NCBI GenBank assembly: GCA_944388995.1
Contig: CALXKN010000008.1
Location: 17,160 to 81,159 of the forward strand
Length of the DNA: 64,000 nucleotides
Source: an uncultured Spirochaetota bacterium
GTDB lineage: Bacteria > Spirochaetota > Spirochaetia > JAFGXN01
Reading direction: 5' to 3'
A model generated the notes under the pieces. It made no database searches. It was not told the DNA's origin and worked only from the letters and a program-made list of their open reading frames with translations. This document shows, one piece after another, positions 37,401-64,000 of the stretch (its first letter is position 1; each line of letters opens with the position of its first letter). The position numbers were made by a program, and so were the translations under genes.

Positions 37401-37652
37401 AAAATTTCTCCTTATAAACAGATAACGATTAATATATTAATATATATTAATTCATTATCTTTATTACACTGTTGATTTGTTGATAATCCTTTTAAATCCT
37501 TTTAACATATAAAATAAGCTGTATAACAGTCTGTCAGTTAAAAGTGTTTTCATGTATGTAAATTGTCAGTTTCTCCTTTTTCTTTTAAAAAGCATATTCA
37601 TATCATATCAAAAAAAACAGAGTTTGCACAGTTTTTATATAAGTTATCAACA
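37401..37652. other. candidate oriC (AT-rich dnaA-dnaN spacer with DnaA-box-like sites)
   Basis: The spacer is a very AT-rich ~250 bp. It contains TGTTGATAA (37478-37486) and the inverted TTATCAACA (37644-37652), each one mismatch from TTATCCACA. A possible unwinding tract TTAATATATTAATATATATTAAT lies at about 37429-37451. Confidence 0.5.
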
Positions 37653-39029: not shown

Positions 39030-39089
39030 AAATATCCCCTCACCATCATAACACAGGATTTGAAAAAGTCCAAGGAAAAAAAGCGAATG

Positions 39090-39118
39090 TTTACTTTTTA
39101 TCGGAAAAAATGTATAAT
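39090..39118 (+). promoter_or_regulatory. gyrB promoter with extended -10, only 5 nt from the ATG
   Basis: TTTACT (39090-39095), a 17-nt spacer, then TG-T-TATAAT (39111-39118). The ATG is at 39124 and there is no Shine-Dalgarno between them. Confidence 0.5.
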
Positions 39119-39123
39119 GACCT

Positions 39124-41058: not shown

Positions 41059-41067
41059 GAGTCGGCC

Positions 41068-43518
41068 ATGGAAGAAACGCAGCCGGGAAATATCATTCCC
41101 GTATCCATAGAAGATGAAGTCAAACAGTCTTATCTGAATTATGCCATGTCGGTTATCGTCAGCCGCGCGTTGCCGGACGTCCGCGACGGACTGAAACCGG
41201 TTCACCGCAGAATCTTATACGCGATGAATGAACTGGGACTGGCGTCAAATAAAGAAACCAAAAAATGCGCCCGCATTGTCGGTGAAGTTTTGGGTAAGTA
41301 CCATCCGCACGGCGATCAGTCGGTTTACGACGCGTTGGTCCGTATGGCGCAATGGTTTTCGCTGAAGTATCCTCTGATTTACGGCCAGGGCAATTTCGGA
41401 AACTTGGACGGCGATTCGGCCGCCGCCATGCGGTATACCGAAGCCAAAATGGAAAAGTACGCTGAATTGATGATGACAGACATCAATAAAGATACGGTTG
41501 ACTGGATGCCGAATTATGATGAATCGACGCAGGAACCGACCGTTCTTCCTTCAGCTTTTCCGAATTTGCTTGTCAACGGATCAAACGGAATTGCTGTCGG
41601 TATGGCGACGAATATGGCTCCGCATAATATCAACGAAGTCTGCGCTGCTGTTTCCGCCTATATCCGGAATCCCGATATTACCGTTGAAGAATTGATGCAG
41701 TATATAAAAGGCCCCGATTTTCCGACCGGCGGTCTTATTTACGGTACAGAAGGAATTAAAAAAGCGTACAGAACGGGTCGCGGAAAAGTTTTGATTCGGT
41801 CAAAGTGTTCGATTGAGACAATGAAATCCGGAAGGATGTGCATTGTTGTTACCGAAATTCCTTACATGGTCAACAAAAAGTCGTTGCTGGAACGGATTGC
41901 CGATTTGGTGAAAGACAAAAAAATCGAAGATATTTCCGCTCTGCGCGATGAATCTTCCGACAGGGTTGGCGTCCGGATCGTTATTGAGTTGAAAAAAGAC
42001 GCCAATGTCAAATTGGCGCTCAATAAACTTTATCTGCTTTCCGATCTCCAGAAAAGTTTCAGTATTATCAATTTGGCTTTGGTGAAAGGCCGTCCGGAAA
42101 CATTAAATTTAAAACAGCTGATTTTTCATTATGTTGAACACCGGAAAGAAGTGGTTACCCGCAGAACGGTTTTCGATTTGAATAAAGCCAAAGCCCGCTG
42201 TCATATTCTGGAAGGGTTAAAAATTGCGCTTGCCAATATCGATGAAATCATCGCCCTTATTAAAGCGTCAAAAACGGTTGATGAGGCAAGAAAGCGCTTG
42301 ATTGAACGTTTTGCCTTTTCCGAAATTCAAGCCAACGCCATCCTCGAAATGAGACTTCAGAAACTGACCAACCTGGAAACGGAAAAAATCCTGAACGAGT
42401 TGGCGGAAATCCTGAAAATGATTGCGTATTACGAAGACTTGCTGACACATGAAGATAAACTGATGGGGGTTGTACGGTCGGAAATCGAGCAAGTTTCCGA
42501 AGCAAATCAGTCAGACCGGCAAACCGAAATTCTGCTGCAGGAAGCGGAAGAAATCGACGCCGAAGACATGATTGCCGAAGAAAACGTGGTTGTTCTGATT
42601 TCAAACAAAGGTTTTATCAAACGGCAGCCCGTTTCATCATACCGGATTCAAAACCGCGGCGGCGCCGGTTCTTCTTCGACAAAATTTCATGTTGACGATT
42701 TTCTTGAACATCTTTTTATTGCCTCAACTCATGAGTACATCGTCTTTCTGACAAACGAAGGACGGGCTTATTATCTGAAAGTTCACGAAATTCCCGAAAG
42801 CAGCAAAGCGGCTAAAGGAACGCATATCAAACAGCTGCTTTCCATTACCGCAAACGAAGAGATTTCCGCTGTAGTAGCTTTAAAGGAATTTAATGAAACT
42901 TCGTTTTTATTTATGGCAACCGGATGCGGAAATGTTAAGCGTCTGGCTACATCAGAGCTGGAAAACGCCAAAACGCGCGGAAAAATCGTAATCCGTCTGC
43001 AGCAGGGCGACCGCCTTGTCAGCGTTATTCCGACAGACGGAAAACGGGAAATGTTTCTCGTTACAAGAAGGGGGCTTGCCCTCCATTTTAAAGAGGAAGA
43101 CGTCCGCGTTATGGGAAGAACCGCCTCCGGCGTGCGCGGAATCAGATTAACCAAAGGTGATGAAGTCGTTGCCGTTCTGTCTTTTAAGGAAAACGAACAG
43201 CTTTTTCTGATTTCCGAATTTGGATTTGCAAAGAGAACTAATCTTGAAAACAGCACTTCGCACTCGCGCGGATCGAAGGGAATCATTTACTATAAAGCCG
43301 GAGAAAAGACAGGCGAACTGGTCGGCGCTCTATGCGTTTCAGAAAAAGACGAATTGGTCTGCATTACCTCTCAAGGAATGACATTAAAATTGAAAGTTGA
43401 TCAAATCCCCGTATTGGGAAGATCTGCTTCAGGCGTGCGTGCGGTTCGCGTAAAAGAACCTGATTGTCTCGTCGGAGTGGCGCGCGTTGTTAACGAAGAT
43501 GCTCCGGATGAAAAATAA
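41068..43518 (+). CDS. gyrA: DNA gyrase subunit A
   Basis: [21 protein letters not shown], the active-site AAMRYTE and C-terminal beta-pinwheel repeats. Length is 816 aa. Confidence 0.95.
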
Positions 43519-53403: not shown

Positions 53404-55218
53404 CTATTCTTTTTTTTCGAAAACGTATCTGATGTCAAAACTGTCGAGAGCATCAAATGTCACATTTTCCCATTTATTGCGAACGGCCAAAAACGCATAC
53501 GGCCGCACCAGATAAACCAGCGGCACCTCTTCCCAAATGATTGACTGGTAACGGTCCCACAACGCTTTCGCCTTTTCGGCATCCGCGGTGTAGGAGGCTT
53601 CCGTATACAGACGGTCGATTTCGGCTTCCCATTCGGTTGCCGGCGTTTTCTGATTTGGATACCACATATGGAGGTTGCCGCCGCTCGGCCACACGTTGAC
53701 GCCCTGGCTCGGAAACAGGTTGCTGCCGGAAAGCGCAATCGACAACGACTGCCAATCGAACGAGTAGAGGAGGGAGTCTACCATTTTCGCAAAATCGACC
53801 GTGCGGATTTCCATCGCAATTCCCTGTTTTTTCAAATCATCGGCATAAATGTTGGCAATGTCCGACAGCTGCGGATTGTCAGCGGAAATCCAAAAGTCAA
53901 ACGCGACGGCGTTGCCCTCTTTATCGCGTAAAACGCCGGCAGAGTCCTTCTCCATTCCGATAGACGTCAACAGCGCGGCCGCTTTTTCCGGATTGTAAAA
54001 ATAGTTGAAAACAAGACTCTCCTCAAACACCGGCGAGGCTTCATGAAAAAAGTGGGTGACCGGTTTCGCTAAACCACGGTAAACATTGCGGATGATTTTT
54101 TCCCGATCCAGAAGGCAGCTCATTGCCTGCCGGAACTCTTTCTGTGAAAACCAATTATAATACTTGCGAGGCAGCGCACTGCGGTTAGGGTTTTGATTCC
54201 ACGTGATAAAAGCCGCTGTCGGAGCCGGACCGCCGTTAATCACCTCGTAACCGCCTTTTTCCTGTTCGGACAGCACGGAATCCAAATCGGCAGGCATCAC
54301 CGACAGCGTTTCCAGTTCGCCGTTTTTGAAAAGCAGCAGCTGCGTTGAAGGATTGGAAACGAACGAAAAACGCACCGTATCAAGGTAGGGCAGCCGCTGA
54401 CCGACGCTGTCTTCCAAAAAATAGTGCGGGTTGCGCCGCAGCTCCAAAACCAGTCCGGGCGTGTAACGGCTGATGTAAAACGGTCCGGCAGTCGGAACGG
54501 TGCTCGGATCGGTATTAATGGTAATAAAATCAATGACACGTTGAGAGCCGCCTTCCTTCTTTGCCGCCTCATAAAGAAACCGCGGCCCGATTTGCAGATT
54601 CGCCGCCAACAAAGGATCGGCGACAATTCGCGGAAAAGTCAGCCGAAACGACGAATCGGTCAGCTTCTCCGCGGTAATTTCGCCGCGGCTCCCGTCCGGC
54701 ATCGGCACAAACATCCCCGAATATTCAGCCATATTCAAAGCCGGATCTTTGATGATTTCCTCAATCCAAAAAACAGCGTCGTCGGCATTGAATGCGATTG
54801 TTTCGCCTGTCTTCGGCACAAACCAACACAAACCCGACTTAAATGTGAAATCAACCTCGGTGACCTGACGCTGCTCATCAACACGGACTTCAAAATCGGC
54901 AATGTGCCCCGACCATTTTTTTTCATAAACATCATATTCCAACAAATACGGACAAAGGTAACTCATCACAGCGCTCGTTGGTAAATCATTGATACGCGTC
55001 AAATTGAATGTCGACGGGTCCGACTCCATCGCCTCGTTCCAAACCCCACCGTAACGTCCGATTTTCCGCTCTCCGCCGCCCGGCCGAACCGTCATCTGCG
55101 ACAGAAAGCCGTTTTGGGCTTCCGCCCGCAAAGCCGCCGCCTCCTGCGTCGACACTTCCTTTTTCGGACCGCATGAAACTGCAGCCGCCGCCAAAACCGC
55201 CAAAAAAAAGCCCTTCAT
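53404..55218 (-). CDS. ABC transporter substrate-binding lipoprotein, family 5 (peptide/nickel, OppA/DppA-like)
   Basis: Lipobox AAAVSCGP. The 604-aa size and sequence texture fit SBP_bac_5. No cognate permease genes lie in the window. Confidence 0.75.
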   Translation of the reverse strand: MKGFFLAVLAAAAVSCGPKKEVSTQEAAALRAEAQNGFLSQMTVRPGGGERKIGRYGGVWNEAMESDPSTFNLTRINDLPTSAVMSYLCPYLLEYDVYEKKWSGHIADFEVRVDEQRQVTEVDFTFKSGLCWFVPKTGETIAFNADDAVFWIEEIIKDPALNMAEYSGMFVPMPDGSRGEITAEKLTDSSFRLTFPRIVADPLLAANLQIGPRFLYEAAKKEGGSQRVIDFITINTDPSTVPTAGPFYISRYTPGLVLELRRNPHYFLEDSVGQRLPYLDTVRFSFVSNPSTQLLLFKNGELETLSVMPADLDSVLSEQEKGGYEVINGGPAPTAAFITWNQNPNRSALPRKYYNWFSQKEFRQAMSCLLDREKIIRNVYRGLAKPVTHFFHEASPVFEESLVFNYFYNPEKAAALLTSIGMEKDSAGVLRDKEGNAVAFDFWISADNPQLSDIANIYADDLKKQGIAMEIRTVDFAKMVDSLLYSFDWQSLSIALSGSNLFPSQGVNVWPSGGNLHMWYPNQKTPATEWEAEIDRLYTEASYTADAEKAKALWDRYQSIIWEEVPLVYLVRPYAFLAVRNKWENVTFDALDSFDIRYVFEKKE

Positions 55219-55224
55219 GCCGCC

Positions 55225-55253
55225 ATAGTAAAAGAAAGCCGCCGTCCTGTCAA
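55225..55253 (-). promoter_or_regulatory. sigma70-type promoter abutting the start codon of the SBP gene (leaderless geometry)
   Basis: On the minus strand the sequence is TTGACA, 17 nt, TACTAT, GGCGGC, then ATG (55218). No Shine-Dalgarno is present. Confidence 0.5.
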
Positions 55254-55254
55254 C

Positions 55255-55421
55255 CTTTTCGTTTTTTGGGCGCGCGCCCCTGCGGGGCGCCGGGCTTTCC
55301 GCTGCAATTCGCAGCCTCCCTGCGCCTTCACCGCGGCAAAGCTGCCGCTTTGCCCTGCGCCTTCTCTCCGTCGGCAGCTCATTTCCGCTTCAATCCCTCG
55401 CGCCTTCGGCAAGGTGCTGCG
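55255..55421. repeat. GC-rich structured repeat, copy A (167 bp)
   Basis: Identical to 56426..56591 apart from one extra T. It contains the hairpins GCGCCCC-TGC-GGGGCGC, GCTGC-AATTC-GCAGC and GCGGCA-AAGC-TGCCGC, plus internal sub-repeats (TTTCCGCTnCAAT, CCTGCGCCTTC). Confidence 0.9.
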
Positions 55422-55631
55422 GAAATCGGCATTTTATTGTTTTAGTGTAAAAATGGGAACTTCCGAAAACAGTCAACCGTTTTTCGGAAAAATAACTGCC
55501 CTAAACGTATTTTTGTGTTATAATAACTCCAATAAAAATTTCGTATGGCAAACACAGCAAAAGCAAAACCCGAAAAAAACGCCGATTAAAACCGGAGCGG
55601 AAGATTCGGGAGAAACTTGGAGCGATCGGGT

Positions 55632-55922
55632 ATGAGCTGTAATCTTCCTGAAAGCGTGGTTTTCGATATTGAACGATTCGCAAAGAAAAACAAGATTAAA
55701 AAGGTCGTTCTGTTTGGCTCCCGCGCGAGGGGCAATCATTCGGAACGAAGCGACATTGATTTGGCGGTCAGCGGTGGAAACGCGGCGGATTTTTATTACG
55801 ACGTCAATGAAGAAGCGCGGACTCTTTTAATTTTTGATGTGGTCAATCTGGACGGACCGGTCAGCGGCGAACTGCGCGCCGAAATAGAAAAGGACGGAGT
55901 TTTACTCTATGAAGAAATTTGA
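55632..55922 (+). CDS. minimal nucleotidyltransferase (MNT), antitoxin partner of HEPN (HI0073-like)
   Basis: LFGSRARGNHSERSDIDLAV carries the GSxxRG...DxD NTase motif. The ATG at 55632 is used, whereas the track uses an upstream TTG. Confidence 0.85.
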   Translation: MSCNLPESVVFDIERFAKKNKIKKVVLFGSRARGNHSERSDIDLAVSGGNAADFYYDVNEEARTLLIFDVVNLDGPVSGELRAEIEKDGVLLYEEI

Positions 55923-56304
55923 CAATTTTTGCAAAGCGCTTTCGAATTTGCGGGAAGGATTGCAGCTTGAAGAACCGTATTCTGTCGTCGAACGGACGGG
56001 CATCATCGGGCTGTTTGAAATTTGCTTTGAGCAGGCATGGAAGCTGATGAAAGCGGTTTTGGAAGAGCACGGCAGGACAATCGACCGCGTCGGTTCCCCG
56101 AAAGTTGTCATTCAGCTTGCATATCAGAGCGGGATGATTGACGACAGCGAAAAATGGCTTTCCCTGCTCAGAGATCGAAATATCCTTGCTCACACCTACA
56201 GCGACGAAGATTCGCTTGCCGTGATTCGAACGTTAAAGACGGACTACGAGCCCTTGTTCGCCACCCTCAAAGAAGAGATTGAAACGCGCCGGCTTTCGGC
56301 GTAA
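55909..56304 (+). CDS. HEPN-domain toxin / nucleotidyltransferase substrate-binding protein (HI0074-like)
   Basis: 131 aa. It overlaps the MNT gene by 14 nt and carries the RNILAH Rx4H HEPN motif. Confidence 0.85.
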   Translation: MKKFDNFCKALSNLREGLQLEEPYSVVERTGIIGLFEICFEQAWKLMKAVLEEHGRTIDRVGSPKVVIQLAYQSGMIDDSEKWLSLLRDRNILAHTYSDEDSLAVIRTLKTDYEPLFATLKEEIETRRLSA

Positions 56305-56425
56305 AGCGGAGGCGCGAAACAACTGAGTCCGGTATGAAAGTAGAAGAAATGGGAGCGAAAACTCTTTCAATCGCCACTGATTCTGCCAGCATCTTTACAT
56401 TTGGCTCCGCCCCCCCTCGCTGAAT

Positions 56426-56591
56426 CTTTTCGTTTTTTGGGCGCGCGCCCCTGCGGGGCGCCGGGCTTTCCGCTGCAATTCGCAGCCTCCCGCGCCTTCA
56501 CCGCGGCAAAGCTGCCGCTTTGCCCTGCGCCTTCTCTCCGTCGGCAGCTCATTTCCGCTTCAATCCCTCGCGCCTTCGGCAAGGTGCTGCG
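56426..56591. repeat. GC-rich structured repeat, copy B (166 bp)
   Basis: A direct repeat of 55255..55421 in the same orientation, on the other side of the MNT/HEPN pair. Confidence 0.9.
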
Positions 56592-56655
56592 AAAGAGGCG
56601 TCTGAAAACTATAAATATGAGAACAATCTCATTTAAACCTCATCCATTTTTATCT

Positions 56656-59541
56656 TCAGCAGAAATGCGCCATATCGCGCGGATAATACTTGCAGTCGTG
56701 CAGTTCCGTGTCGTCAAGCCCCAGCGCCTTTACCAGGGCAGCAGACGCTATGCACCAGTACCCGCGGTACTGGTTCTTTTTCAAGTCAAATTTTGTTATA
56801 AGCCCATCAGTCTTCGTGTGAATCCACTGTCTTTTAAGATACCGTTTTAACCGCTCAACAGCCGCCGCTTTATTCTCTTTTGAAAGCAGTACCACCTCAT
56901 ATACCGCATTGGAATATTTCGGACAGCAGAGCTTTTCCGTGCGTATCTGCCAGGATGAGTCCAGCGTCTGCATAAGGAAATCCAGATAAAAATCCCGCTG
57001 TTCCGATTTTTGTAACAATTTTCGATAGTCATCCAGAAATTCAGTCCTGTTAAAAAGCATAATCAAGTACAGAACAGTTTCCATATCTTCATAATTATCA
57101 TTGCCGTCCTGTGCGTCTATCAAATGACGCAAAATCAGGTCTACTTCGGGAAGCAGCTCATGCATATCTAGCCCTAAGGAATATCCTGTATAAAATTTGT
57201 AAAATGCATAAGTATATATTTGATATTTAAACGCTCTTATGTCCGATTCTGCCTGATGTTCATCAGTCTCAATATTATGATGATGATACGTTTGCAGTAT
57301 TTCTTTCAGCTTTTGGGAATCTTTCTTGAATCTTTCGTCAAAATATTCCTGGGGTTTGACTTTATCCCTCATCATTCTTACCCGGGGCGGAAGTTTTTCC
57401 CGCTCCTCCTCCGTAAGAAATTGCGACAGTTCAACTAAAAAGGGCTCTATAAACTCCGACATGAGTTTCGCTTTATTCCCGGCTGAGTGATCATAAGGTA
57501 TTTCAATTGCCGATGTCCGCCGTTTCTCATCCTTCCACAAGCGTCCTATTTTAATAAATGAACCGCCTTTCTCAAATATGTACAACGATATAATCAGTGT
57601 GCAGTCTTCATACTCACATTCTATATAATCTTGCTCCCCCAAGCAGTAATCTCTGTAGGTAAGATTCCTCAAAGTGGTTATTATCCAGGGTATCCACTCT
57701 TTTTTGATGACAACACTATCCCATGACTGCCATGACCCGGTACCGAAACGGCTGCCGGTTCTGGTGTTGATTCGTAGTTCGCCTTTGGGACTCCAGGGCG
57801 TGGGAAGTTTTTTCCGTTCTTCTTCAGGAAGAAATTGTGACAAGGCCACTAAGAAGGGTTCTATAAATTCCGACATGATTTTCAAGTCGTTGTCCGATTC
57901 TTCAAAATTAAATTCGAAACGGGTATAACGCCACTTTGATGTCAGGGTATAACTCTGCTCATTTTTTGCATGCCAAGGAAAATAAGGTATTTCAAGTGCC
58001 GGCGATATCTTCTTTTCATCCTTCCACATGGGAAATATTTTTATATAGGAATACCCATCCCCTATAGGACAGATACTTAATGTTAATTGGCACGTTCCCC
58101 ATTTATTTATGATGCTTTCAACTCCTGTTTGATAATTATCAACACTAAGATTTCTCAATGTGCTTATTATCCAGGGTATCCGGTTTTTTTGTATAACAAT
58201 ACTTTTCTGCTGCCCGCCGCCGAATGTACCGGTTCTTTTTCCGTTAATCCGTAATTCATCGTTATCTAATTCCTCGAAGCTGTATTCAAAATCGGCATTC
58301 AGAGTTTTTTTGCTTTGATATTTTGTTATCTTCTCTATTTTGGCTACTATCGATTCGTCGTCCGACTTATCGGTTTCGCCTGCATACCAATCTTTGCCTT
58401 CGAGCCATACCCCGAACCAGAAAGGAAGATCCCCCCAAGGTCTTTGACAGAGTTCTTTCTTTTCGTTGACACTCCAGGGGGGCGACAGTTTACCCCTTTC
58501 TTCTTCCGTGAGAAACTGCGACAATGCAACCAGAAACGGCTCTATAAATTCCGACATTAATTTTGTTTCTTTCCGGGATACATAGGGTATTTCAATATTC
58601 CATGAACTCTTATTTTCATTTTTCCAGACAGGATAAATTTTGATATAGGAATAATCAAAGGGTACTACATTTATAATAAAACTTAAATTACAGTAACCGT
58701 ATTCATATACGAGAGTTTGCGGGGTGTTATAATCGTCGATAGTGGCATTTCTTAGTGTGGTAATGATCAAAGGTATCCACGCTTTTTTTATGATAATACT
58801 TTCCCATTGTCCCCTGCCGAATGAATCTGTTCGCTTTGCATTGATTTCCAACTCGTCATCATTTAATTCTTCATTGTCAGCTTTTTCCTCAAAATAAAAT
58901 TCGAAATGAACATTCCCGCCCTTACTGATCAGGTATTCTTTTTCTGCCAGTCCGTATTGTGTTATACCGGTCATTGCTTTGAAAAAATTGAGGGAACCGC
59001 TTTCCTTATCGGCAAAAATGATGTTCTGTTTTTTGTTTTCCCTCCAGGGAGGCGGAAGTTGTGTTCTTTCTTCTTCGGTAAGGAATTGTGCCAATTCAAC
59101 CAAAACAGGTTCGATAAATTCCGCCATTAACCTGCTTTTATCCCAGGGTAGATATGGTATTTCAATAAACGGTGTCGTTTTTTCCTTCGGTTCCTTCCAT
59201 ATGGGCATTATTTGAAGGGTCGCATAATCTTTGGCAGATGGTAAAAACTCCAGATTGACTTGACATTCTTCATATTCGTGAACGATATGTCTGTTCCAAA
59301 TCCCTTCCGGAAAGTTGATGTCGTAATCCTCAAAAGGAAGGGTTCTCAGTGTGGTGATAATCCGGGAAATCCACGCTTTTTTTATGACGATACAGTAATA
59401 CAAAGGCATACGTTCCGCTTCATCCAACAATGGAAAGGTTATTTTTTCGAAAATCCGTATTTCGTCGTTGTCCGATTCCTCAAAATGAAATTCAAAGGTA
59501 TCGGATATTTCGGCATCTCCCCTTCTGCCTGTAATGAACAT
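56656..59541 (-). CDS. 961-aa fusion protein: four tandem copies of an unrecognised ~150-190 aa module plus a C-terminal PoNi-like (DUF1910/DUF1911) immunity domain
   Basis: Repeats lie at about aa 15-166, 212-356, 417-523 (+541-583) and 588-719. They share FEFxFEExDNDELRIN, IIKKAWIPxIITTLRN, YIKIxPxWKDEKK, IEIPY and KLMSEFIEPFLVxLSQFLTEEERxKLPPPW. Residues 723-961 begin MRDKVKPQEYF and end YRGYWCIASAALVKALGLDDTELHDCKYYPRDMAHFC. Confidence 0.65.
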   Translation of the reverse strand: MFITGRRGDAEISDTFEFHFEESDNDEIRIFEKITFPLLDEAERMPLYYCIVIKKAWISRIITTLRTLPFEDYDINFPEGIWNRHIVHEYEECQVNLEFLPSAKDYATLQIMPIWKEPKEKTTPFIEIPYLPWDKSRLMAEFIEPVLVELAQFLTEEERTQLPPPWRENKKQNIIFADKESGSLNFFKAMTGITQYGLAEKEYLISKGGNVHFEFYFEEKADNEELNDDELEINAKRTDSFGRGQWESIIIKKAWIPLIITTLRNATIDDYNTPQTLVYEYGYCNLSFIINVVPFDYSYIKIYPVWKNENKSSWNIEIPYVSRKETKLMSEFIEPFLVALSQFLTEEERGKLSPPWSVNEKKELCQRPWGDLPFWFGVWLEGKDWYAGETDKSDDESIVAKIEKITKYQSKKTLNADFEYSFEELDNDELRINGKRTGTFGGGQQKSIVIQKNRIPWIISTLRNLSVDNYQTGVESIINKWGTCQLTLSICPIGDGYSYIKIFPMWKDEKKISPALEIPYFPWHAKNEQSYTLTSKWRYTRFEFNFEESDNDLKIMSEFIEPFLVALSQFLPEEERKKLPTPWSPKGELRINTRTGSRFGTGSWQSWDSVVIKKEWIPWIITTLRNLTYRDYCLGEQDYIECEYEDCTLIISLYIFEKGGSFIKIGRLWKDEKRRTSAIEIPYDHSAGNKAKLMSEFIEPFLVELSQFLTEEEREKLPPRVRMMRDKVKPQEYFDERFKKDSQKLKEILQTYHHHNIETDEHQAESDIRAFKYQIYTYAFYKFYTGYSLGLDMHELLPEVDLILRHLIDAQDGNDNYEDMETVLYLIMLFNRTEFLDDYRKLLQKSEQRDFYLDFLMQTLDSSWQIRTEKLCCPKYSNAVYEVVLLSKENKAAAVERLKRYLKRQWIHTKTDGLITKFDLKKNQYRGYWCIASAALVKALGLDDTELHDCKYYPRDMAHFC

Positions 59542-59780
59542 TGCATCTACCAGTTTAAGAAAAGCTTTTGTATCAGCGGATTGGGCAGATTCTTCATGTT
59601 GATCGTCTTCTTTATTATATTTTATTCCGACTCCTAAGGAACGCAGCCGTCATATCGAAGGGGTGCAACGGTATGACGGCCAACACTCCGCTTTCACGCG
59701 GTGGTCTTATGCTGTTCATGTCGATACCGGACCGCTTCCGACACAACCGAATGAAGTTTTCCGATTTTCCGAATCAATTT

Positions 59781-60486
59781 CTAACAGAAATGGGTCATAT
59801 CGTAGGGATAGTATTTACAGTCTTTCAGTTCCGTATCGTCAAGTTTGAGGGCTTTTACCAAAGCGGCGGCGGCGATGCACCAATACCCCCGGTACCACCC
59901 TATTTTCAGATCCCGGTTGGTTATAACACCTTCGGTTAATGACATAAACCACTGCCTTTTAAGATACCTCTTTAACCGCTGGACGGCTTCCGCCTTGTTT
60001 TCTTTTGACAGCATTACCACCTCGTATACCGAATTGGTCTCTTTGGGGCAACGAAGTTTTTCCGTACTTATCTGCCATGTGGAGTCTACTATCTGTACAA
60101 GATAATCCAGGTAAAAATCCCGCATTTTCGATTTTTGTAATAACTCCTTATATTCATCCAGAAATTCTGTCCGGTTAAAAAGAATGATTAAGTATATAAT
60201 CATTTCCATATCATCATAACCTCTGTCCCTTTCTCTCGTTGTATCAATCAAATTTCTTATGATAAGGTCTACTTCGGGAAGCAGCTCATTCATACCAAGC
60301 CCCAGGGAATAGCCTGCATAAAATTTACAAGCTGCTTCCATATATATGTGATATTTAAACGACCATACATTATATTTTTCCGGATGGCTTATTCTCTTCA
60401 TATTTACTCATCCGTTCAGCAAGATCAGACGCATCCTTATTATATCTTTCCCTAAAATATTCTTCTGTTTTTATGGTGTCTCTCAT
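59781..60486 (-). pseudogene. PoNi-like (DUF1910/DUF1911) immunity gene, apparently split by a 1-nt frameshift; the 206-aa ORF 59781..60401 may still be expressed
   Basis: ORF 59781..60401 aligns with aa 770-961 of the 961-aa protein. The missing N-terminus (MRDTIKTEEYFRERYNKDASDLAERMSKY) is encoded at 60486..60400 in another frame and stops at 60370. Confidence 0.6.
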
Positions 60487-60489
60487 CTG

Positions 60490-60630
60490 TTATTCCTTGT
60501 GTATTTTGTAAATTTTTGGTTTATTCTCGTTATACATAACATTGCCATTTTCATCAAGTTGGTAATATGTTACTTTTCCTCCCTTCGGAACGCCTGCGGC
60601 GTGGCTACAATCCTTTGTGCGAGAAGATTT
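60490..60630 (-). pseudogene. start-less 46-codon remnant, probably the C-terminal tail of a toxin, ending 3 nt before the PoNi-like ATG
   Basis: The open frame KSSRTKDCSHAAGVPKGGKVTYYQLDENGNVMYNENKPKIYKIHKE* has no ATG/GTG/TTG. It begins right after TGA TAA at the edge of the 58-bp repeat. Confidence 0.4.
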
Positions 60631-60642
60631 TTATCAATGGTG

Positions 60643-60700
60643 TCCGTACACACCCATTGATGTTGTCAAAGAACTCCTTCTGTACGGAGATAGGGGGAGG
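60643..60700. repeat. 58-bp junction repeat, copy 1
   Basis: TCCGTACACACCCATTGATGTTGTCAAAGAACTCCTTCTGTACGGAGATAGGGGGAGG is identical to 63943..64000. It contains the 8-bp inverted arms TCCGTACA and TGTACGGA separated by 30 nt. Confidence 0.9.
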
Positions 60701-60701
60701 G

Positions 60702-60929
60702 TTATTCAAAAGTTATTACCATATGCGAACCTGCCGTTTTTTCGGTTACTTTCTGTATAATCTCTTTTTTGTCATCTTCAGTTAATGGCTCGTTTTCTGG
60801 AACAAGCCAATTTTTCATTGAACTTTTATAACAGACAAAACCGCCTACTATCATTTCGCCTGCGATTCTCGCAGTTCTGCCATCGAGTTCTACATCTATG
60901 TATGTGTTTGTTCCGGTTATTTTTGTCAT
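60702..60929 (-). CDS. small hypothetical protein (75 aa) in the immunity-gene array
   Basis: The ORF lies 9 nt downstream of the DUF600 gene. Its first 10 codons are duplicated at 62353..62324. Confidence 0.5.
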   Translation of the reverse strand: MTKITGTNTYIDVELDGRTARIAGEMIVGGFVCYKSSMKNWLVPENEPLTEDDKKEIIQKVTEKTAGSHMVITFE

Positions 60930-61036
60930 ATATTAATCCTATGCATTATCCCATTCGTCTTGAAGAGCCTGATCCCATTCAAAGGTCATATCAAAGTGAC
61001 CGTTCTTTTCAAGGGTGTAAATAGCTTTGTTCCATT
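60899..61036. repeat. 138-bp segmental duplication, copy 1
   Basis: Matches 62323..62460. The first 64 bp are identical and the rest is roughly 85 percent identical by eye. It spans the 3' end of a DUF600 gene, the spacer and the 5' end of the 75-aa gene. Confidence 0.85.
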
Positions 61037-61271
61037 GTGCAAAATGTAACTCTTTTGCACTATTATGAAATTTTATTAAATCAATTTTTGTTTCTCGATT
61101 AAGTGCTAAGTTTAAAGCATTTTTCCATTCTCCATTAATCTGATATTTTGCATTCGTACCAATATATTTATCACTACATTCAATATTCAGTTCAATTTTA
61201 TCCCAAGAGGAATCAATACTATCATTCAATTGCGAACCAATATTTTTATATATATCTTCAATATTTTTCAT
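60939..61271 (-). CDS. DUF600 / YezG / EsaG-type immunity protein
   Basis: 110 aa, starting 11 nt after the nuclease-domain stop with an AGGAG RBS. The overall pattern (acidic, WDKIELNIE...W..A.Y.L...G.F...F) fits DUF600 antitoxins of EsaD/YeeF nucleases. It is a paralog of 62363..62686. Confidence 0.7.
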   Translation of the reverse strand: MKNIEDIYKNIGSQLNDSIDSSWDKIELNIECSDKYIGTNAKYQINGEWKNALNLALNRETKIDLIKFHNSAKELHFAQWNKAIYTLEKNGHFDMTFEWDQALQDEWDNA

Positions 61272-61282
61272 AAATACTCCTA

Positions 61283-61648
61283 TTAATTTAAGAAGAACAA
61301 ATTTTCTGTTTTTTCTATTTTTCCATCCGATGTTTTTATAATGTATGTTACATCAAAATCTGTCGGTCTTAGATTATCAGCATAGTTTATTTTTATATCA
61401 ACTTCAACCTTTTTTCCCTCTGAAAGTGCATCGTTCCATTTTTTTTCCATGGTTTTCCATTCACCATTATTTAGTGTGGCGGTTTGTGGAACATAATTTA
61501 TTTGTTCTCCAGGACCATTGAAAATTCTTGCAATAATATGTCCGCCCTGGTCATCACCTTTAATACCATCTTTTATATCAACTGATTTTCCTTGTTGATA
61601 AACATTTCTGTCTTTTGTTTCAAGTTTTAATTCTCCGCTTACTTTGTT
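61283..61648 (-). pseudogene. orphan, start-less C-terminal nuclease toxin domain (EsaD/YeeF-type, Endonuclease_NS_2-like)
   Basis: Manual translation gives NKVSGELKLETKDRNVYQQGKSVDIKDGIKGDDQGGHIIARIFNGPGEQINYVPQTATLNNGEWKTMEKKWNDALSEGKKVEVDIKINYADNLRPTDFDVTYIIKTSDGKIEKTENLFFLN*. The frame opens after a TAA at 61649-61651 and has no ATG/GTG/TTG until codon 68, so it is absent from the ORF track. Confidence 0.7.
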
Positions 61649-61731
61649 TTACAACTATTTTCTTTTACTTGCAATTGTTCCAAAACGATTAAGTGCAGCA
61701 ACAATATCTTCATAATCAGCATCTATTTCAT

Positions 61732-62262
61732 CTAACTGTCCCAGATTTCCTTAAATTTTAAACCTTTGATACTGTTTTTCTTAACAATATCTATAAACTC
61801 ATCTGTTACAAAATAATCTCGAATAATTAATTGATTTTGTAGTTTAACTTGAAAAAGAGGTGGATAATTGTTTTCCTTAAAATAATATTGCTCAACACCT
61901 AAAATATCATTCTCAAAATACTTATATTTAGTTTTTTTTCGATCTAAGCAGTCCAAAACAGTTAAATTATTTAATAGTACAAAATCGTCATTAAGCGGAA
62001 CAAATCTTATATTTATTTGAGAAATGTCAGAAAGTACTGCCATAAATTTTTTATTTATGAAGAATCCTCTACAATCATAACATTCACAAATATCCCCTGC
62101 AGGATTATTAGAATCTCTATCGTATTCTAATTGAAAATCAGAAGGAATGCTTATTTCTATACCTTTATTAAACTGACGTAAAATTTTTCTATCAGTTTCT
62201 TCGTTTTTTATATAGCATCCTTTGTAATTATCAATATCTGTTTCTAAAATGTATATTTTCAT
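61732..62262 (-). CDS. hypothetical 176-aa protein, immunity-protein-like by context (family not firmly recognised)
   Basis: An AT-rich ORF within the immunity array. Its size and composition resemble DUF1629/Imm-type proteins, but no diagnostic motif was identified. Confidence 0.45.
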   Translation of the reverse strand: MKIYILETDIDNYKGCYIKNEETDRKILRQFNKGIEISIPSDFQLEYDRDSNNPAGDICECYDCRGFFINKKFMAVLSDISQINIRFVPLNDDFVLLNNLTVLDCLDRKKTKYKYFENDILGVEQYYFKENNYPPLFQVKLQNQLIIRDYFVTDEFIDIVKKNSIKGLKFKEIWDS

Positions 62263-62299
62263 ATATCCCCCCCCTAATTGTGAATTTTTAAGAAACCAC

Positions 62300-62353
62300 T
62301 CAATAATTCCTTTCGGATTGTTTGTATGTGTTTGTTCCGGTTATTTTTGTCAT
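62300..62353 (-). pseudogene. 17-codon relic of the 75-aa gene
   Basis: MTKITGTNTYKQSERNY*. The first 10 codons are identical to 60929..60900, after which the sequence diverges and stops. Confidence 0.6.
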
Positions 62354-62460
62354 ATATTAATCCTATGCATTATCCCATTCGTCTTGGAGAGTTTGATCCC
62401 ATTCAAATGTCATATCAAAATGACCATTCCTTTCAAGAGAGTAAACAGCTTTGTTCCATT
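62323..62460. repeat. 138-bp segmental duplication, copy 2
   Basis: See 60899..61036. Confidence 0.85.
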
Positions 62461-62686
62461 TATGCTCAGGCGACATAGATTCTTGAAGTTCAAAAACGCT
62501 ATCCATTAAAGTATTTACAGTTAATAAAGGAAACTTTAATTCTTTTTTTTCAAACGATGATAAAGTATATTCTGCCTGAAATGAACACATTTTATTTAGA
62601 CTTGATTCTATTTTTACAGTCACTTTTTCCCATTTACCGGAAATATTATCTTGAACCGCCTTGCCTAATTCTTTATATAAATCCAT
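62363..62686 (-). CDS. DUF600 / YezG / EsaG-type immunity protein, second paralog
   Basis: 107 aa. The C-terminal KWNKAVYSLERNGHFDMTFEWDQTLQDEWDNA is nearly identical to the C-terminus of 60939..61271. Confidence 0.7.
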   Translation of the reverse strand: MDLYKELGKAVQDNISGKWEKVTVKIESSLNKMCSFQAEYTLSSFEKKELKFPLLTVNTLMDSVFELQESMSPEHKWNKAVYSLERNGHFDMTFEWDQTLQDEWDNA

Positions 62687-62732
62687 AGCATCTCCATTAA
62701 TTGTTGAATATTTTTTTGAATAGTTGGCTCAT

Positions 62733-63842
62733 TTATTTCTCTTTATTTAAAATAAACAGATACTCAGAGACGTGTATATTACGGTTATTCAAATTTCTGC
62801 TTCCCCGGAATGTATTATAAGTCATTTCAACGGTTTTCAGTTTTCCGTAGTGTTCCAGCATTGTTTTCATTTGCTCAAAAGTAATAAATCCTTCAGAATT
62901 ATAAGAGATAATGACAAACTTTGAATCAATTTTATCTATGATTTTTTCCATGGATTTTAAGGCTGAATAAGGTTTGTTGAATTCCGAGCGGTTCCAATCC
63001 TGAGTTATCCCTGAAACTTTACTGATTTCAGCATCCAGCCTGTTCTTTATGATAAGATTCAGCATAAAATAATTTGAACCATAGGGATGCTGGTTATACG
63101 GGGGATCCAGATAAGTAATATCTATTTTTTTTAATTCCCCGGCAAGTTCCACAGCATCTTTTTTATAGATTTTAACCTTTGAATTGAAATTGCTTAAAAC
63201 CGGCTCTTTCAGTTCTATTTTTCCAAAAATGCGGGTTAAAGCGTTTTTCCCGGCAGCGCCGAAACATCCGATTCCGGTATTTTTGTCCTTGTAAAACCCT
63301 TTGAAAACCCCGCTTGTATTGACATGAACCGAAGCCTCCGTTACGAGCGGCGCTAAAAAAAATTTTTTCATGTCTTCTTCCTGCACCACTTTATCAATCA
63401 GACTGCGGTAAGTGTCGATTAACAGAGCGTTCTCATGGGTATAAAAAACCCTTTCTCCTCTTTGAATATTTCCGTCATCCTGAGGGGCATAATTTTTTGT
63501 GATAATTCTCGGTTCTTTTTTGCTGCGGCACATTTCTTCTATTATTGATTTATATTCCCGCCATTTTTCATGCGGAAAATCTTTTTTGTCAGTCAGATAG
63601 CATTCATTGATGAGGCGGGAATATTCTTCCAGATCATTGGCAATTAAAACACTGCTGTATTTTTTCAGCATCCGGGCAACAATTCCCGAACCGGAGAAAA
63701 TATCCGCACAAACAAGTTTTTCTTTTCCCAATAAACCGGCAATTTTTTTGACTTCTTCTTCTATATTCCTGATAAGCTGCCGTTTGTTCCTGATATAAGT
63801 AATGATCTGTGCAGTAAGATATTCTTTATTTTCTTCTTTCAT
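62733..63842 (-). CDS. N6-adenine DNA methyltransferase (SAM motif then DPPY), no cognate endonuclease visible
   Basis: DIFSGSGIVARML (FxGxG, motif I) near aa 48 and YLDPPYNQHPYGSNY (motif IV) near aa 244. Length is 369 aa. Confidence 0.8.
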   Translation of the reverse strand: MKEENKEYLTAQIITYIRNKRQLIRNIEEEVKKIAGLLGKEKLVCADIFSGSGIVARMLKKYSSVLIANDLEEYSRLINECYLTDKKDFPHEKWREYKSIIEEMCRSKKEPRIITKNYAPQDDGNIQRGERVFYTHENALLIDTYRSLIDKVVQEEDMKKFFLAPLVTEASVHVNTSGVFKGFYKDKNTGIGCFGAAGKNALTRIFGKIELKEPVLSNFNSKVKIYKKDAVELAGELKKIDITYLDPPYNQHPYGSNYFMLNLIIKNRLDAEISKVSGITQDWNRSEFNKPYSALKSMEKIIDKIDSKFVIISYNSEGFITFEQMKTMLEHYGKLKTVEMTYNTFRGSRNLNNRNIHVSEYLFILNKEK

Positions 63843-63877
63843 GGCTGTAAAGATTTATATTGTTCCAAATTTCCGGT

Positions 63878-64000
63878 TTATTCTATGCTTTTTGACAGAC
63901 CTTTATACTCAGTATCCCTCTCCGCAAAAATCAACCCGGATTTCCGTACACACCCATTGATGTTGTCAAAGAACTCCTTCTGTACGGAGATAGGGGGAGG
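63878..64000 (-). CDS. 3' end of a gene whose body lies beyond the window edge; its last 40 codons include the 58-bp repeat
   Basis: Only one minus-strand frame is open from 64000: PPPISVQKEFFDNINGCVRKSGLIFAERDTEYKGLSKSIE*. It stops 35 nt before the methyltransferase ATG. Confidence 0.45.
   Translation of the reverse strand, partial: PPPISVQKEFFDNINGCVRKSGLIFAERDTEYKGLSKSIE
63943..64000. repeat. 58-bp junction repeat, copy 2 (may extend past the window)
   Basis: Identical to 60643..60700. Confidence 0.9.

What the first reader, a model, noticed from the sequence alone, without database searches (positions are those of the whole stretch)
61283..61648. Start-less EsaD/YeeF-type nuclease toxin domain missed by the ORF track, tightly coupled to a DUF600 immunity gene
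The minus strand encodes 121 codons that include DDQGGHIIARIFNGPGEQINYVPQTATLNNGEWKTMEKKWNDALSEGKKVEVDIKINYADNLRPTDFDVTY.

This follows the pattern of the C-terminal DNase domain of T7SS LXG/EsaD/YeeF toxins: GH-x-IA..F.G......N.vPQ....N.g.W..mE..W...l..Gk.V.v.i...Y.....RP..f.V.Y.

The frame opens right after a stop codon and has no ATG/GTG/TTG for 67 codons. It is therefore a toxin C-terminal domain without any N-terminal delivery region. It stops 11 nt (containing AGGAG) before a DUF600/YezG-type gene at 60939..61271, which is the cognate immunity family for this nuclease class.

This is the classic signature of an orphan CT-immunity cassette that could be reactivated by recombination onto a full-length toxin gene.
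Basis: partly seen in the sequence, partly recalled or inferred. Interest (0 to 1): 0.75.

Follow-up and report, generated by a model that had tools for sequence, protein, structure and literature searches.

The report
Dead nuclease-toxin remnant beside live immunity gene
This is the beheaded, untranslatable leftover of a DNA-cutting toxin gene that survives only because it sits directly in front of a still-intact antidote (immunity) gene, inside a chromosomal array of collected antidote genes; this is a well-known and ordinary arrangement.

Summary
Window 61648..61283 (-) is a 121-codon stop-free frame whose first ATG/GTG/TTG is codon 67. It matches Pfam Endonuclea_NS_2 (E=6.8e-25) and the S. 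aureus EssD/EsaD nuclease structure. It ends 11 nt (TAGGAGTATTT) before a 110-aa gene of the DUF600/YezG/EsaG (Imm36) family.

- The piece is not a whole toxin domain. DNA homology to intact copies starts abruptly at 61649, 73 codons into the nearest intact ORF. The first ~21 positions of the nuclease profile are missing.
- Other contigs carry the same 110-aa immunity protein behind a series of differently truncated nuclease genes (homology starting at codons 1, 74, 108, 136, 153). The toxin decays while the immunity gene is kept.
- The host looks like a diderm, probably Treponema, not a T7SS Firmicute. The nearest full-length toxins have a non-LXG N-terminus.
- The neighbourhood is a mixed array of immunity genes (two DUF600, Imm11-like, Imm74, two PoNi). 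Short 3' relics of toxin genes lie in front of several of them.
- Reactivation by recombination is possible in principle, since alleles are mosaic. However, the conserved pre-toxin stretch is gone and no full-length toxin lies nearby.

Verdict: an ordinary new member of a known kind, of low interest.

The parts
61283..61648 (-). 5'-truncated relic of a Tox-NucA / Endonuclea_NS_2 nuclease toxin gene. It has 121 sense codons plus TAA and no usable start. It keeps the GGH catalytic histidine and the conserved Asn but lacks the first ~21 profile positions of the domain.
   Evidence: Homology to intact copies starts at 61649, which is codon 74 of P0003.
61272..61282 (-). 11-nt spacer TAGGAGTATTT carrying the Shine-Dalgarno-like AGGAG for the immunity gene.
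   Evidence: The same nuclease 3' end plus immunity gene is kept after every truncation class; the spacer lies between them and is seen directly in L074 and L007.
60939..61271 (-). Intact 110-aa immunity gene of a short subfamily of DUF600 / YezG / EsaG (Imm36).
   Evidence: The identical protein is listed on 157 contigs and was seen in at least five different upstream contexts. pN/pS about 0.07 against the copy in L074.
61649..61731 (-). Relic of the 3' end of a different toxin-like ORF (...LDEIDADYEDIVAALNRFGTIASKRK*). It is joined to the nuclease relic across TAG-TTG-TAA.
   Evidence: The longer ORF in contig L079 contains NPHAHHILF but has no Pfam hit.
61732..62262 (-). 176-aa Imm11-like (DUF1629) immunity gene.
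   Evidence: PF07791 E=5.3e-4, 19.8 bits against a cut-off of 22.1, so sub-threshold. There is a paralogue in L001.
62274..62327 (-). 17-codon relic (IQTIRKELLSGFLKIHN*) of the tail of an AHH-family nuclease toxin, directly before the Imm11-like gene.
   Evidence: 59% identity to the C-terminus of the AHH chimera in L001, E=0.006 within the window.
62324..62353 (-). First 10 codons of an Imm74 gene (MTKITGTNTY), cut off.
   Evidence: (repeat D4).
62363..62686 (-). Second DUF600/YezG-like immunity gene (107 aa).
   Evidence: PF04634, 23.4 bits against a cut-off of 21.7. Also.
62687..62733 (-). Relic of about 11 codons of a second nuclease allele (tail variant '...NEPTVQMIFNN'), lying immediately after the stop of the methyltransferase gene.
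   Evidence: 91.7% identity, window 62733-62323 against L074 12683-13091.
60702..60929 (-). Imm74 immunity gene (75 aa).
   Evidence: PF15603, E=1.3e-15.
60899..61036 (.). 138-nt direct repeat, 93% identical to 62323-62460. It consists of the DUF600 3' end plus the Imm74 5' end. The two copies bracket the Imm11-like gene and the nuclease relic.
   Evidence: (family D4).

Best explanation
The feature is a dead, 5'-truncated remnant of a polymorphic nuclease toxin gene (Tox-NucA / Endonuclea_NS_2, the fold of S. aureus EsaD). It persists because it abuts an intact immunity gene of the DUF600/EsaG family (Imm36) that is presumably still selected.

Shown:
- A deletion joined codon 74 of the nuclease ORF to the 3' end of an unrelated toxin-like ORF.
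- This removed the start codon, all upstream sequence and the first part of the nuclease domain.
- The last 121 codons, the 11-nt spacer with its ribosome-binding site, and the immunity gene were kept.

Inferred:
- The relic is not translated. If it were, it would not fold into an active DNase.
- The 110-aa protein is made and protects the cell against this allele of the nuclease when competitors deliver it. By analogy with EsaG, it would do so by inserting into and splitting the toxin's beta-sheet.

The cassette is one unit of a mixed array of immunity genes (two DUF600, Imm11-like, Imm74, two PoNi) in a diderm, probably Treponema, chromosome about 20 kb from the replication origin. Homologous recombination between conserved blocks and illegitimate deletions keep reshuffling the array.
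For: - Domain identity.
- No start codon, and in-frame TAG and TAA immediately upstream.
- Sharp homology breakpoint at 61649 against intact copies (95.9-97% identity over 643-799 nt through the immunity gene).
- Truncation inside the domain (profile positions 22-130 of 132, against 1-132 in intact relatives).
- By alignment to EssD, the fragment starts at '...KEVYVDNL'. I infer this is beta3, so the N-terminal loop and beta1-2 are lost. Wang et al. 2022 (PMC9616950) show that beta1-3 form the N-terminal half of the core sheet and that neither half of EsaD alone has DNase activity.
- Nested 5' deletions upstream of the same 110-aa immunity protein, with four different junction partners among the truncated copies and homology starting at codons 1, 74, 108, 136 and 153. 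Contexts.
- Immunity gene conserved: the identical protein is listed on 157 contigs; pN/pS about 0.07.
- Pairing of nuclease and this immunity family in 26 of 41 loci across phyla.
- Other toxin-tail relics in the same array.
- Array composition.
- Published associations: Zhang et al. 2012 (PMC3482391) list Tox-NucA with Imm36 (=DUF600), Tox-AHH with Imm11, and Tox-Arc with Imm74. They list these immunity families as found in heterogeneous polyimmunity loci and list spirochaetes for Tox-NucA, Imm36 and Imm11.
Against: - There are no expression data, so 'not translated' rests on the absence of canonical starts.
- The relic is still free of stops and keeps the catalytic His and the conserved Asn. 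pN/pS against an intact allele is 0.14, so decay is not visible in the retained part. I attribute this to recent truncation and gene conversion: the first ~100 nt resemble one allele and the rest another.
- An internal ATG gives a 55-aa ORF (61283..61450) that gene callers do call, and its translation cannot be excluded.
- Only about 71 kb of the genome was visible, so a full-length partner toxin elsewhere is not excluded.
Confidence: 0.8

Rival explanations
1. Silent reserve cassette. The fragment and its immunity gene are kept as a unit so that homologous recombination can load a new nuclease tail and matching immunity gene onto an expressed toxin gene, changing the strain's toxin and immunity type.
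For: - Alleles of this nuclease are mosaics with different crossover points.
- The fragment shares 261 nt at 92.7% identity, in direct orientation, with a 212-aa nuclease ORF about 4 kb upstream in the near-identical contig L001.
- L007 carries that ORF's 5' part joined to this fragment's tail and immunity gene.
- The variable C-terminal tails co-vary with distinct DUF600 paralogues.
- Orphan modules have been loaded onto full-length genes in CDI and Rhs systems (PMC3150448; PMC3967940, abstract).
Against: - The fragment lacks the conserved pre-toxin stretch (AETVIFERKAGTVYVKPNETLIKNGAWDEILE) after which different C-terminal domains diverge.
- It is truncated inside the fold.
- The only upstream partner, the 212-aa ORF, itself has no delivery region. 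It corresponds to residues 234-445 of P0056.
- The L007 product is frameshifted.
- No N-terminal toxin body is present in the window or L001.
- The nested deletion series looks like decay, not maintenance.
Confidence: 0.12
2. An expressed small protein. Translation would start at a non-canonical codon (ATA at 61576 or ATT at 61564), or at the internal ATG 61450 giving a 55-aa peptide. The product could, for example, bind or titrate the DUF600 protein.
For: - Gene callers call the 55-aa ORF in several assemblies.
- In EsaD, the C-terminal fragment (helix alphaB plus beta6-8) contacts EsaG from the side of its sheet opposite the N-terminal fragment (PMC9616950). In YeeF the two fragments bind YezG independently.
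Against: - There is no convincing Shine-Dalgarno sequence before any of these codons.
- The 55-aa ORF lacks the catalytic His.
- Other relics in the same array are only 11-27 codons long, so no minimum length is maintained.
- Promoter and terminator scans show nothing above chance.
Confidence: 0.05
3. Part of an intact larger gene read through by frameshifting, stop-codon readthrough or recoding.
For: The 31-codon open stretch upstream (61743..61652) happens to be in the same frame as the nuclease relic.
Against: - Two in-frame stops (TAG, TAA) separate the two stretches.
- The upstream stretch is the tail of an unrelated ORF and is itself closed by a TAA 31 codons further up, inside the Imm11-like gene.
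- DNA homology to nuclease genes ends exactly at the junction.
Confidence: 0.02

Closest known systems
EsaD(EssD)/EsaG of Staphylococcus aureus and YeeF/YezG of Bacillus subtilis (T7SSb nuclease toxin with DUF600 immunity)
   Same: - Same nuclease domain family: PF13930, and the family profile hits 8GUO_B at 2e-24.
- Same immunity family: the profile hits EsaG 8GUO_A at 9.3e-6.
- Same gene order, toxin then immunity, tightly spaced.
- Tandem DUF600 paralogues share conserved blocks that recombine (138-nt repeat D4), as in Garrett et al. 2022 (PMC9484751).
   Different: - No LXG or other N-terminal region and no start codon.
- The domain is truncated.
- The host appears to be a diderm, probably a spirochaete.
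- The immunity proteins are a short (~106-123 aa) subfamily covering only part of the 146-position Pfam model.
- The closest relatives of the domain (57-70% identity) are in Treponema, Flavobacteriales and Proteobacteria. The clostridial loci found are at 31-46%.
Orphan cdiA-CT/cdiI and rhs-CT/rhsI modules (Poole et al. 2011, PMC3150448; Koskiniemi et al. 2014, PMC3967940)
   Same: A toxin fragment lacking translation-initiation signals is followed by an immunity gene with its own Shine-Dalgarno sequence and ATG, arranged in arrays.
   Different: - Classical orphans usually keep the whole toxin domain plus the conserved junction (VENN motif or Rhs core) and are toxic when given a start codon.
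- This one is cut inside the domain and has lost the junction.
- No full-length gene is seen upstream.
Heterogeneous polyimmunity loci (Zhang et al. 2012, PMC3482391), T6SS orphan-immunity arrays in Vibrio cholerae (Kirchberger et al. 2017, PMC5361080) and acquired interbacterial defence islands (Ross et al., bioRxiv 10.1101/471110)
   Same: - A same-strand array of immunity genes from unrelated families.
- Each toxin-immunity pairing matches the published associations: NucA-Imm36, AHH-Imm11, Arc-Imm74.
- Old effectors are displaced or deleted while their immunity genes are retained.
   Different: - No recombinase, T6SS cluster or integron-like constant boundary was found next to the array. 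The downstream ends of the shared segments vary.
- The taxon, probably a Treponema known only from metagenome assemblies, has not been described for this as far as my literature searches show.

Membership tests
Endonuclea_NS_2 (PF13930) / Tox-NucA beta-beta-alpha-metal nuclease, EsaD type | Sequence matches the family model above its curated threshold. | tested here: met
   88.2 bits against a cut-off of 27, E=6.8e-25. The family profile hits EssD 8GUO_B at E=2e-24.
Endonuclea_NS_2 (PF13930) / Tox-NucA beta-beta-alpha-metal nuclease, EsaD type | Catalytic His in the GGH motif and the metal-binding Asn are present. | tested here: met
   H37 and N60 of the fragment are invariant in alignment A1. 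GGHIIARIF aligns with EssD GGHLIARMF. H528 and N551 are the catalytic residues in EsaD (PMC9616950). The Asn equivalence is my inference from the alignment.
Endonuclea_NS_2 (PF13930) / Tox-NucA beta-beta-alpha-metal nuclease, EsaD type | Complete domain, including the N-terminal strands of the core sheet. | tested here: not met
   Only profile positions 22-130 of 132 are present, against 1-132 in intact relatives. DNA homology starts at codon 74 of P0003.
Endonuclea_NS_2 (PF13930) / Tox-NucA beta-beta-alpha-metal nuclease, EsaD type | DNase activity. | not testable with these tools
   Needs expression and a DNase assay. Predicted inactive, by analogy with split EsaD.
T7SSb LXG toxin (full-length EsaD/YeeF class) | N-terminal LXG or other T7SS-targeting domain on the same polypeptide. 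| tested here: not met
   There is no upstream coding continuation. The nearest full-length relatives (L008, P0057) have no LXG or any other Pfam hit in residues 1-440.
T7SSb LXG toxin (full-length EsaD/YeeF class) | Host is a monoderm with a T7SSb (Ess) apparatus. | tested here: inconclusive
   YidC has a periplasmic domain, and the origin region has a divergent dnaA|gyrB layout that I take to be spirochaete-like. nr names a close full-length homologue 'uncultured Treponema sp.'. Only 64 kb was seen and only 28 window ORFs were scanned against Pfam.
DUF600 / YezG-like / EsaG (Imm36) immunity protein | Matches the family model or solved members. | tested here: met
   The 110-aa protein alone is marginal (20.8 bits against a cut-off of 21.7). 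A profile of 16 homologues hits EsaG at 9.3e-6 and BH3703 at 3.2e-5. 14 of 16 members hit PF04634, best E=5.5e-9.
DUF600 / YezG-like / EsaG (Imm36) immunity protein | Encoded immediately downstream of a Tox-NucA toxin domain. | tested here: met
   In 26 of 41 loci examined, the next gene after the nuclease domain is a homologue (phmmer E from 3e-4 to 4e-75). The gap is -17 to +48 nt in all but one locus, where it is 81 nt.
DUF600 / YezG-like / EsaG (Imm36) immunity protein | Binds and neutralises the cognate nuclease. | not testable with these tools
   Needs co-expression and pull-down experiments.
Orphan CT/immunity module in the CDI/Rhs sense | Toxin fragment without initiation signals, followed by an immunity gene with SD and ATG. 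| tested here: met
Orphan CT/immunity module in the CDI/Rhs sense | Retains the conserved pre-toxin junction that allows reloading onto a full-length gene. | tested here: not met
   The shared stretch 'AETVIFERKAG...GAWDEILE' (near-identical DNA in L001 and L079, followed by different C-terminal domains) lies upstream of the breakpoint and is absent.
Orphan CT/immunity module in the CDI/Rhs sense | Lies downstream of a full-length toxin gene of the same family. | tested here: not met
   None is present in the window or in the L001 extension. The rest of the genome was not available.
Heterogeneous polyimmunity locus (Zhang et al. 2012) | Tandem same-strand array of immunity genes from different families, with toxin remnants. 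| tested here: met
   YezG-like twice, Imm11-like, Imm74 and PoNi twice, all on the minus strand between 56656 and 62686. Four toxin-tail relics (and this finding).

The most novel reading that the evidence does not exclude
The relic-plus-immunity units may not be mere debris. They could be the working substrate of a recombination-driven diversification system for a family of polymorphic toxins in gut and rumen Treponema. That family has a conserved ~440-aa N-terminal trafficking region matching no known domain (no Pfam hit; the AlphaFold model is poor). The region is shared by proteins ending in Endonuclea_NS_2, Tox-SHH, TNT or HNH-like domains. In that reading, the variable last ~35 residues of the nuclease set immunity specificity and are swapped, together with the matching DUF600 paralogue, by crossovers inside the conserved nuclease core. 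This would be a new delivery route in spirochaetes and a swap point inside the catalytic domain rather than in front of it.
Probability: 0.15. Interest if true: 0.5.

Novelty: new member of a known kind. Interest (0 to 1): 0.2.

Why it matters
On its own it matters little. It is a pseudogene fragment of a well-characterised toxin fold next to its expected immunity gene, in the kind of array catalogued since 2011-2012.

Its practical value is for annotation. The 55-aa 'Endonuclea_NS_2 (weak)' ORF that pipelines call here is an artefact of a truncated gene. The sub-threshold 110-aa neighbour can be named a DUF600/Imm36 immunity protein with confidence.

The comparative data add two small points. 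First, the same 110-aa immunity protein is spread over many metagenome contigs behind differently decayed toxin genes, consistent with collection of defensive immunity genes in a spirochaete-like gut bacterium. Second, an uncharacterised polymorphic-toxin N-terminal region exists in Treponema. This lies outside the window and was not resolved here.

Tried and rejected
- Non-canonical start: I listed all ATA/ATT/CTG codons with their upstream 20 nt. None has a convincing ribosome-binding site.
- Upstream continuation: all three frames have stops, and the in-frame upstream stretch is the tail of an unrelated ORF.
- Promoter and terminator scan of 59500-64000: counts equal the shuffled expectation, so it is uninformative.
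- Rfam scan of 54500-64000 at E<=0.1: nothing.
- Integron/attC or other site-specific cassette idea, prompted by the identical 58-nt hairpin-containing element after Imm74 (60643-60700 = 63943-64000). Rejected because the downstream ends of the shared segments differ between contigs (window positions 60576, 60587, 60591, 60643, 60684, 60702). No recombinase was seen.
- My from-memory reading of the domain upstream of the nuclease in P0056/L079 as Tox-ARC, and of the L079 C-terminus as AHH: no Pfam hit at E<=0.01. I therefore do not claim either.
- Organism name: the one genome-contig scan did not return the window's own species, and cluster look-ups carry no names. The assignment to Treponema rests on gene order, the YidC type and one nr name of a homologue.
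- Structure of the full-length toxin P0057: mean pLDDT 43, too poor for a fold search, so none was run.
- dN/dS of the relic against an intact allele (0.14) is not usable as evidence of selection on the relic. The differences cluster in a gene-converted block.
Full report
**1. The observation**

On the minus strand, 61648..61283 reads NKVSGELKLETKDRNVYQQGKSVDIKDGIKGDDQGGHIIARIFNGPGEQINYVPQTATLNNGEWKTMEKKWNDALSEGKKVEVDIKINYADNLRPTDFDVTYIIKTSDGKIEKTENLFFLN*. The frame opens right after an in-frame TAA. The first ATG/GTG/TTG is codon 67, so the mechanical ORF list shows only a 55-aa ORF, 61283..61450. The stop is followed by TAGGAGTATTT and then the ATG of a 110-aa ORF, 60939..61271.

The local DNA is about 28-30% G+C, against about 45% for the rest of the window. 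In that composition, 121 consecutive sense codons have a chance probability of about 6e-6.

The translation matches Pfam Endonuclea_NS_2 at E=6.8e-25. A profile of its relatives matches the crystallised nuclease domain of S. aureus EssD/EsaD at E=2e-24, with GGHIIARIF aligned to GGHLIARMF.

**2. The neighbour**

The 110-aa protein alone scores 20.8 bits against YezG-like/DUF600, just under the 21.7-bit cut-off. I tested the pairing independently.
- I examined 41 loci found with the nuclease domain, from Treponema, Flavobacteriales, alpha- and gamma-proteobacteria and others. In 26 of them, the gene directly after the nuclease domain is a homologue of the 110-aa protein. These homologues are mostly 106-123 aa (two are longer, 257 and 267 aa). 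phmmer E-values run from 3e-4 to 4e-75.
- A profile of 16 of these proteins hits EsaG (8GUO_A, 9.3e-6) and BH3703 (3.2e-5). 14 of the 16 hit PF04634 individually.

Toxin relic and neighbour thus match the two chains of one solved toxin-immunity complex.

**3. Where the gene is broken**

Database relatives at 95-97% identity are 137-199 aa (P0001-P0006; the 210-aa P0010 is 83% identical). All carry extra N-terminal sequence that the window lacks.

DNA alignment to an intact cassette (contig L074: the 194-aa P0003 plus the same 110-aa gene) is 95.9% identical over 799 nt. It runs through the immunity gene but starts abruptly at window 61649, which is codon 74 of P0003.

Pfam coverage tells the same story: positions 22-130 of 132 here, against 1-132 in intact relatives.

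By alignment to EssD, the fragment begins at the residues corresponding to '...KEVYVDNL'. I infer this is strand beta3, so the N-terminal loop and beta1-2 are gone. Wang et al. 2022 show that beta1-3 form the N-terminal half of the core sheet and that neither half of EsaD alone is active (PMC9616950). I therefore infer that the piece would be inactive even if translated. This step is an inference, not a test.

**4. What it is joined to**

The 83 nt upstream (61649-61731) are in the same frame but separated from the relic by TAG-TTG-TAA. An exact-match scan found the same sequence at the end of a longer ORF in a JGI metagenome contig (L079). That ORF has a different C-terminal domain containing NPHAHHILF, with no Pfam hit. 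The junction is therefore a deletion joint between the tail of one toxin-like gene and the middle of another.

**5. The neighbourhood**

All genes from 62686 down to 56656 are on the minus strand and are immunity-type:
- DUF600 (107 aa)
- Imm11-like (176 aa, sub-threshold)
- the relic plus DUF600 (110 aa)
- Imm74
- PoNi (206 aa)
- a 961-aa protein with internal repeats and PoNi domains.

Further relics sit in front of the other immunity genes:
- about 11 codons of a second nuclease allele, right after the stop of a D12 methyltransferase gene and before the 107-aa DUF600;
- the first 10 codons of an Imm74 gene;
- a 17-codon AHH-toxin tail before the Imm11-like gene.

A 138-nt direct repeat (DUF600 3' end plus Imm74 5' end, 93% identical) brackets the Imm11-like gene and the relic. 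This resembles the conserved blocks that drive esaG recombination in S. aureus (PMC9484751).

Contig L001 is 99.94% identical to window 64000-60839 and extends the array. Beyond the window it carries another Imm74, an Imm11-like paralogue, a chimera of a DUF600 N-terminus with an AHH nuclease C-terminus, and a 212-aa ORF with a complete nuclease domain. Beyond that lies a divergently oriented Na/Ala symporter gene.

These pairings are the ones tabulated by Zhang et al. 2012: Tox-NucA with Imm36 (=DUF600), Tox-AHH with Imm11, and Tox-Arc with Imm74. They list these immunity families as found in 'heterogeneous polyimmunity loci' and list spirochaetes for Tox-NucA, Imm36 and Imm11 (PMC3482391).

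**6. Comparative evidence for decay**

The identical 110-aa protein is listed on 157 contigs. In the contigs examined, the nuclease gene upstream of it falls into these classes:
- intact from codon 1 (L074, L076-78);
- present from its own start but frameshifted (L007);
- homology starting at codon 74 (this window, L001-4, L088-89);
- homology starting at codon 108, directly after the stop of a methyltransferase gene next to fliH-fliI-fliJ (L081-86);
- homology starting at codon 136, fused to a DUF600 3' end (L087);
- homology starting at codon 153, fused to a repeat unit of the PoNi protein (L080).

Many database 'proteins' are such chimeras. In every class the nuclease 3' end and the immunity gene are retained.

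The immunity gene shows pN/pS of about 0.07 against L074. The relic's pN/pS of 0.14 is not informative, because its differences cluster in a block that matches another allele, which points to gene conversion.

**7. Host and delivery**

The window contains recF-dnaN-dnaA divergent from gyrB-gyrA, with a GC-skew minimum at about 35-36 kb. It also contains a YidC with a periplasmic domain, which I take as a diderm feature.

The closest full-length toxins carrying this nuclease are about 605 aa (76% identical to the fragment). nr names one of them 'uncultured Treponema sp.'. Their ~430-aa N-terminus is 91-100% identical in a further twelve proteins (54-74% in five more), and the C-termini include Endonuclea_NS_2, Tox-SHH, TNT and HNH-like domains. 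That pattern marks a genuine polymorphic toxin family. The N-terminus has no LXG or any other Pfam hit, and the AlphaFold model is poor, with mean pLDDT 43.

More distant relatives of the domain sit on DUF4280-containing and RHS-repeat-like proteins of Gram-negative bacteria. DUF4280 has a Pfam hit; the RHS reading comes only from inspecting the sequence.

The T7SS/LXG label is therefore right for the fold but not for the system.

**8. Can it be reactivated?**

For:
- alleles are mosaic;
- the relic shares 261 nt at 92.7% identity with the 212-aa ORF about 4 kb upstream;
- L007 looks like the product of such a crossover, though it is frameshifted.

Against:
- the conserved stretch AETVIFERKAG...GAWDEILE, after which different C-terminal domains diverge (near-identical DNA in L001 and L079), lies upstream of the breakpoint;
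- the 212-aa ORF itself corresponds only to residues 234-445 of a longer protein;
- no N-terminal toxin body occurs in the window or L001.

I put this rival at about 0.12.

**9. Verdict**

This is a dead 5'-truncated Tox-NucA remnant hitch-hiking on an intact DUF600/Imm36 orphan immunity gene, inside a recombining array of mixed immunity genes in a probable Treponema chromosome. It is a new member of a known kind. Interest 0.2.

Noticed in passing
window 55252-55424 and 56423-56594: Two ~173-nt G+C-rich direct repeats (98-99% identical). They flank a nucleotidyltransferase / HEPN-like (Polbeta + NTase_sub_bind/HepT-like) toxin-antitoxin pair at 55617-56304, as if the pair were a bounded insert. 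No Rfam match.
   Followed up: partly
window 56656-59541 and 59781-60401: A 961-aa ORF with four internal repeat units spaced ~370-680 nt apart, ending in PoNi_N and PoNi_C domains. A 206-aa PoNi_C paralogue (76-78% nucleotide identity) lies just upstream of it in the direction of transcription. Repeat units of the large protein turn up fused to nuclease tails in database chimeras (P0006, P0043-46).
   Followed up: partly
window 62733-63842: A D12-class N6-adenine DNA methyltransferase gene sits inside the immunity array. Its stop codon abuts the last ~11 codons of a nuclease gene, as if it had replaced the rest of that toxin.
   Followed up: partly
window 60643-60700 and 63943-64000: An identical 58-nt element follows each Imm74 gene. 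It contains an 8-bp inverted repeat (TCCGTACA...TGTACGGA). The ends of the shared segments vary between contigs, so it is not a fixed cassette boundary.
   Followed up: partly
L001 5659-6297 and 6316-6744 (extension of the window beyond 64000): A 212-aa ORF has an ATG and a complete nuclease domain, but the DUF600 gene after it is destroyed: about 48 N-terminal residues are fused to an AHH nuclease C-terminus. If that ORF were expressed it should be self-toxic unless it is cross-protected. This is unexplained.
   Followed up: no
L001 5659-5765 and L079 700-594 (minus strand): About 105 nt of near-identical DNA encoding AETVIFERKAGTVYVKPNETLIKNGAWDEILE is followed by two unrelated C-terminal domains in the two contigs. 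It is a candidate swap junction for this toxin family.
   Followed up: partly
proteins P0042, P0050, P0051 and P0007: Chimeric ORFs join the first ~42 residues of a phage-tail-tube-like protein (PF06841; P0042 is on 56 contigs), or the N-terminus of a serine resolvase (P0007), to the nuclease at the GGH motif. The L081-86 breakpoint falls at GGH too, and P0008 and P0011 join one to four residues later, so this may be a recombination hotspot.
   Followed up: no
proteins P0057, P0249-P0264; locus L008 105-1919: A polymorphic toxin family, one member named 'uncultured Treponema sp.' by nr, has a conserved ~440-aa N-terminus with no Pfam match and predicted membrane-like helices. It carries at least four different C-terminal toxin types. 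The AlphaFold model is too poor to classify it.
   Followed up: partly
L007 2138-2563; proteins P0018, P0025, P0053: Several copies of the nuclease gene are frameshifted, in L007 at an A-run (GTAAAAAATGG). This could be either real pseudogenisation or homopolymer sequencing error.
   Followed up: no
window 35206-43518: Chromosomal replication-origin region: recF-dnaN-dnaA on the minus strand, divergent from gyrB-gyrA on the plus strand. The cumulative GC-skew minimum is at about 35-36 kb. The immunity array lies about 20 kb away.
   Followed up: partly
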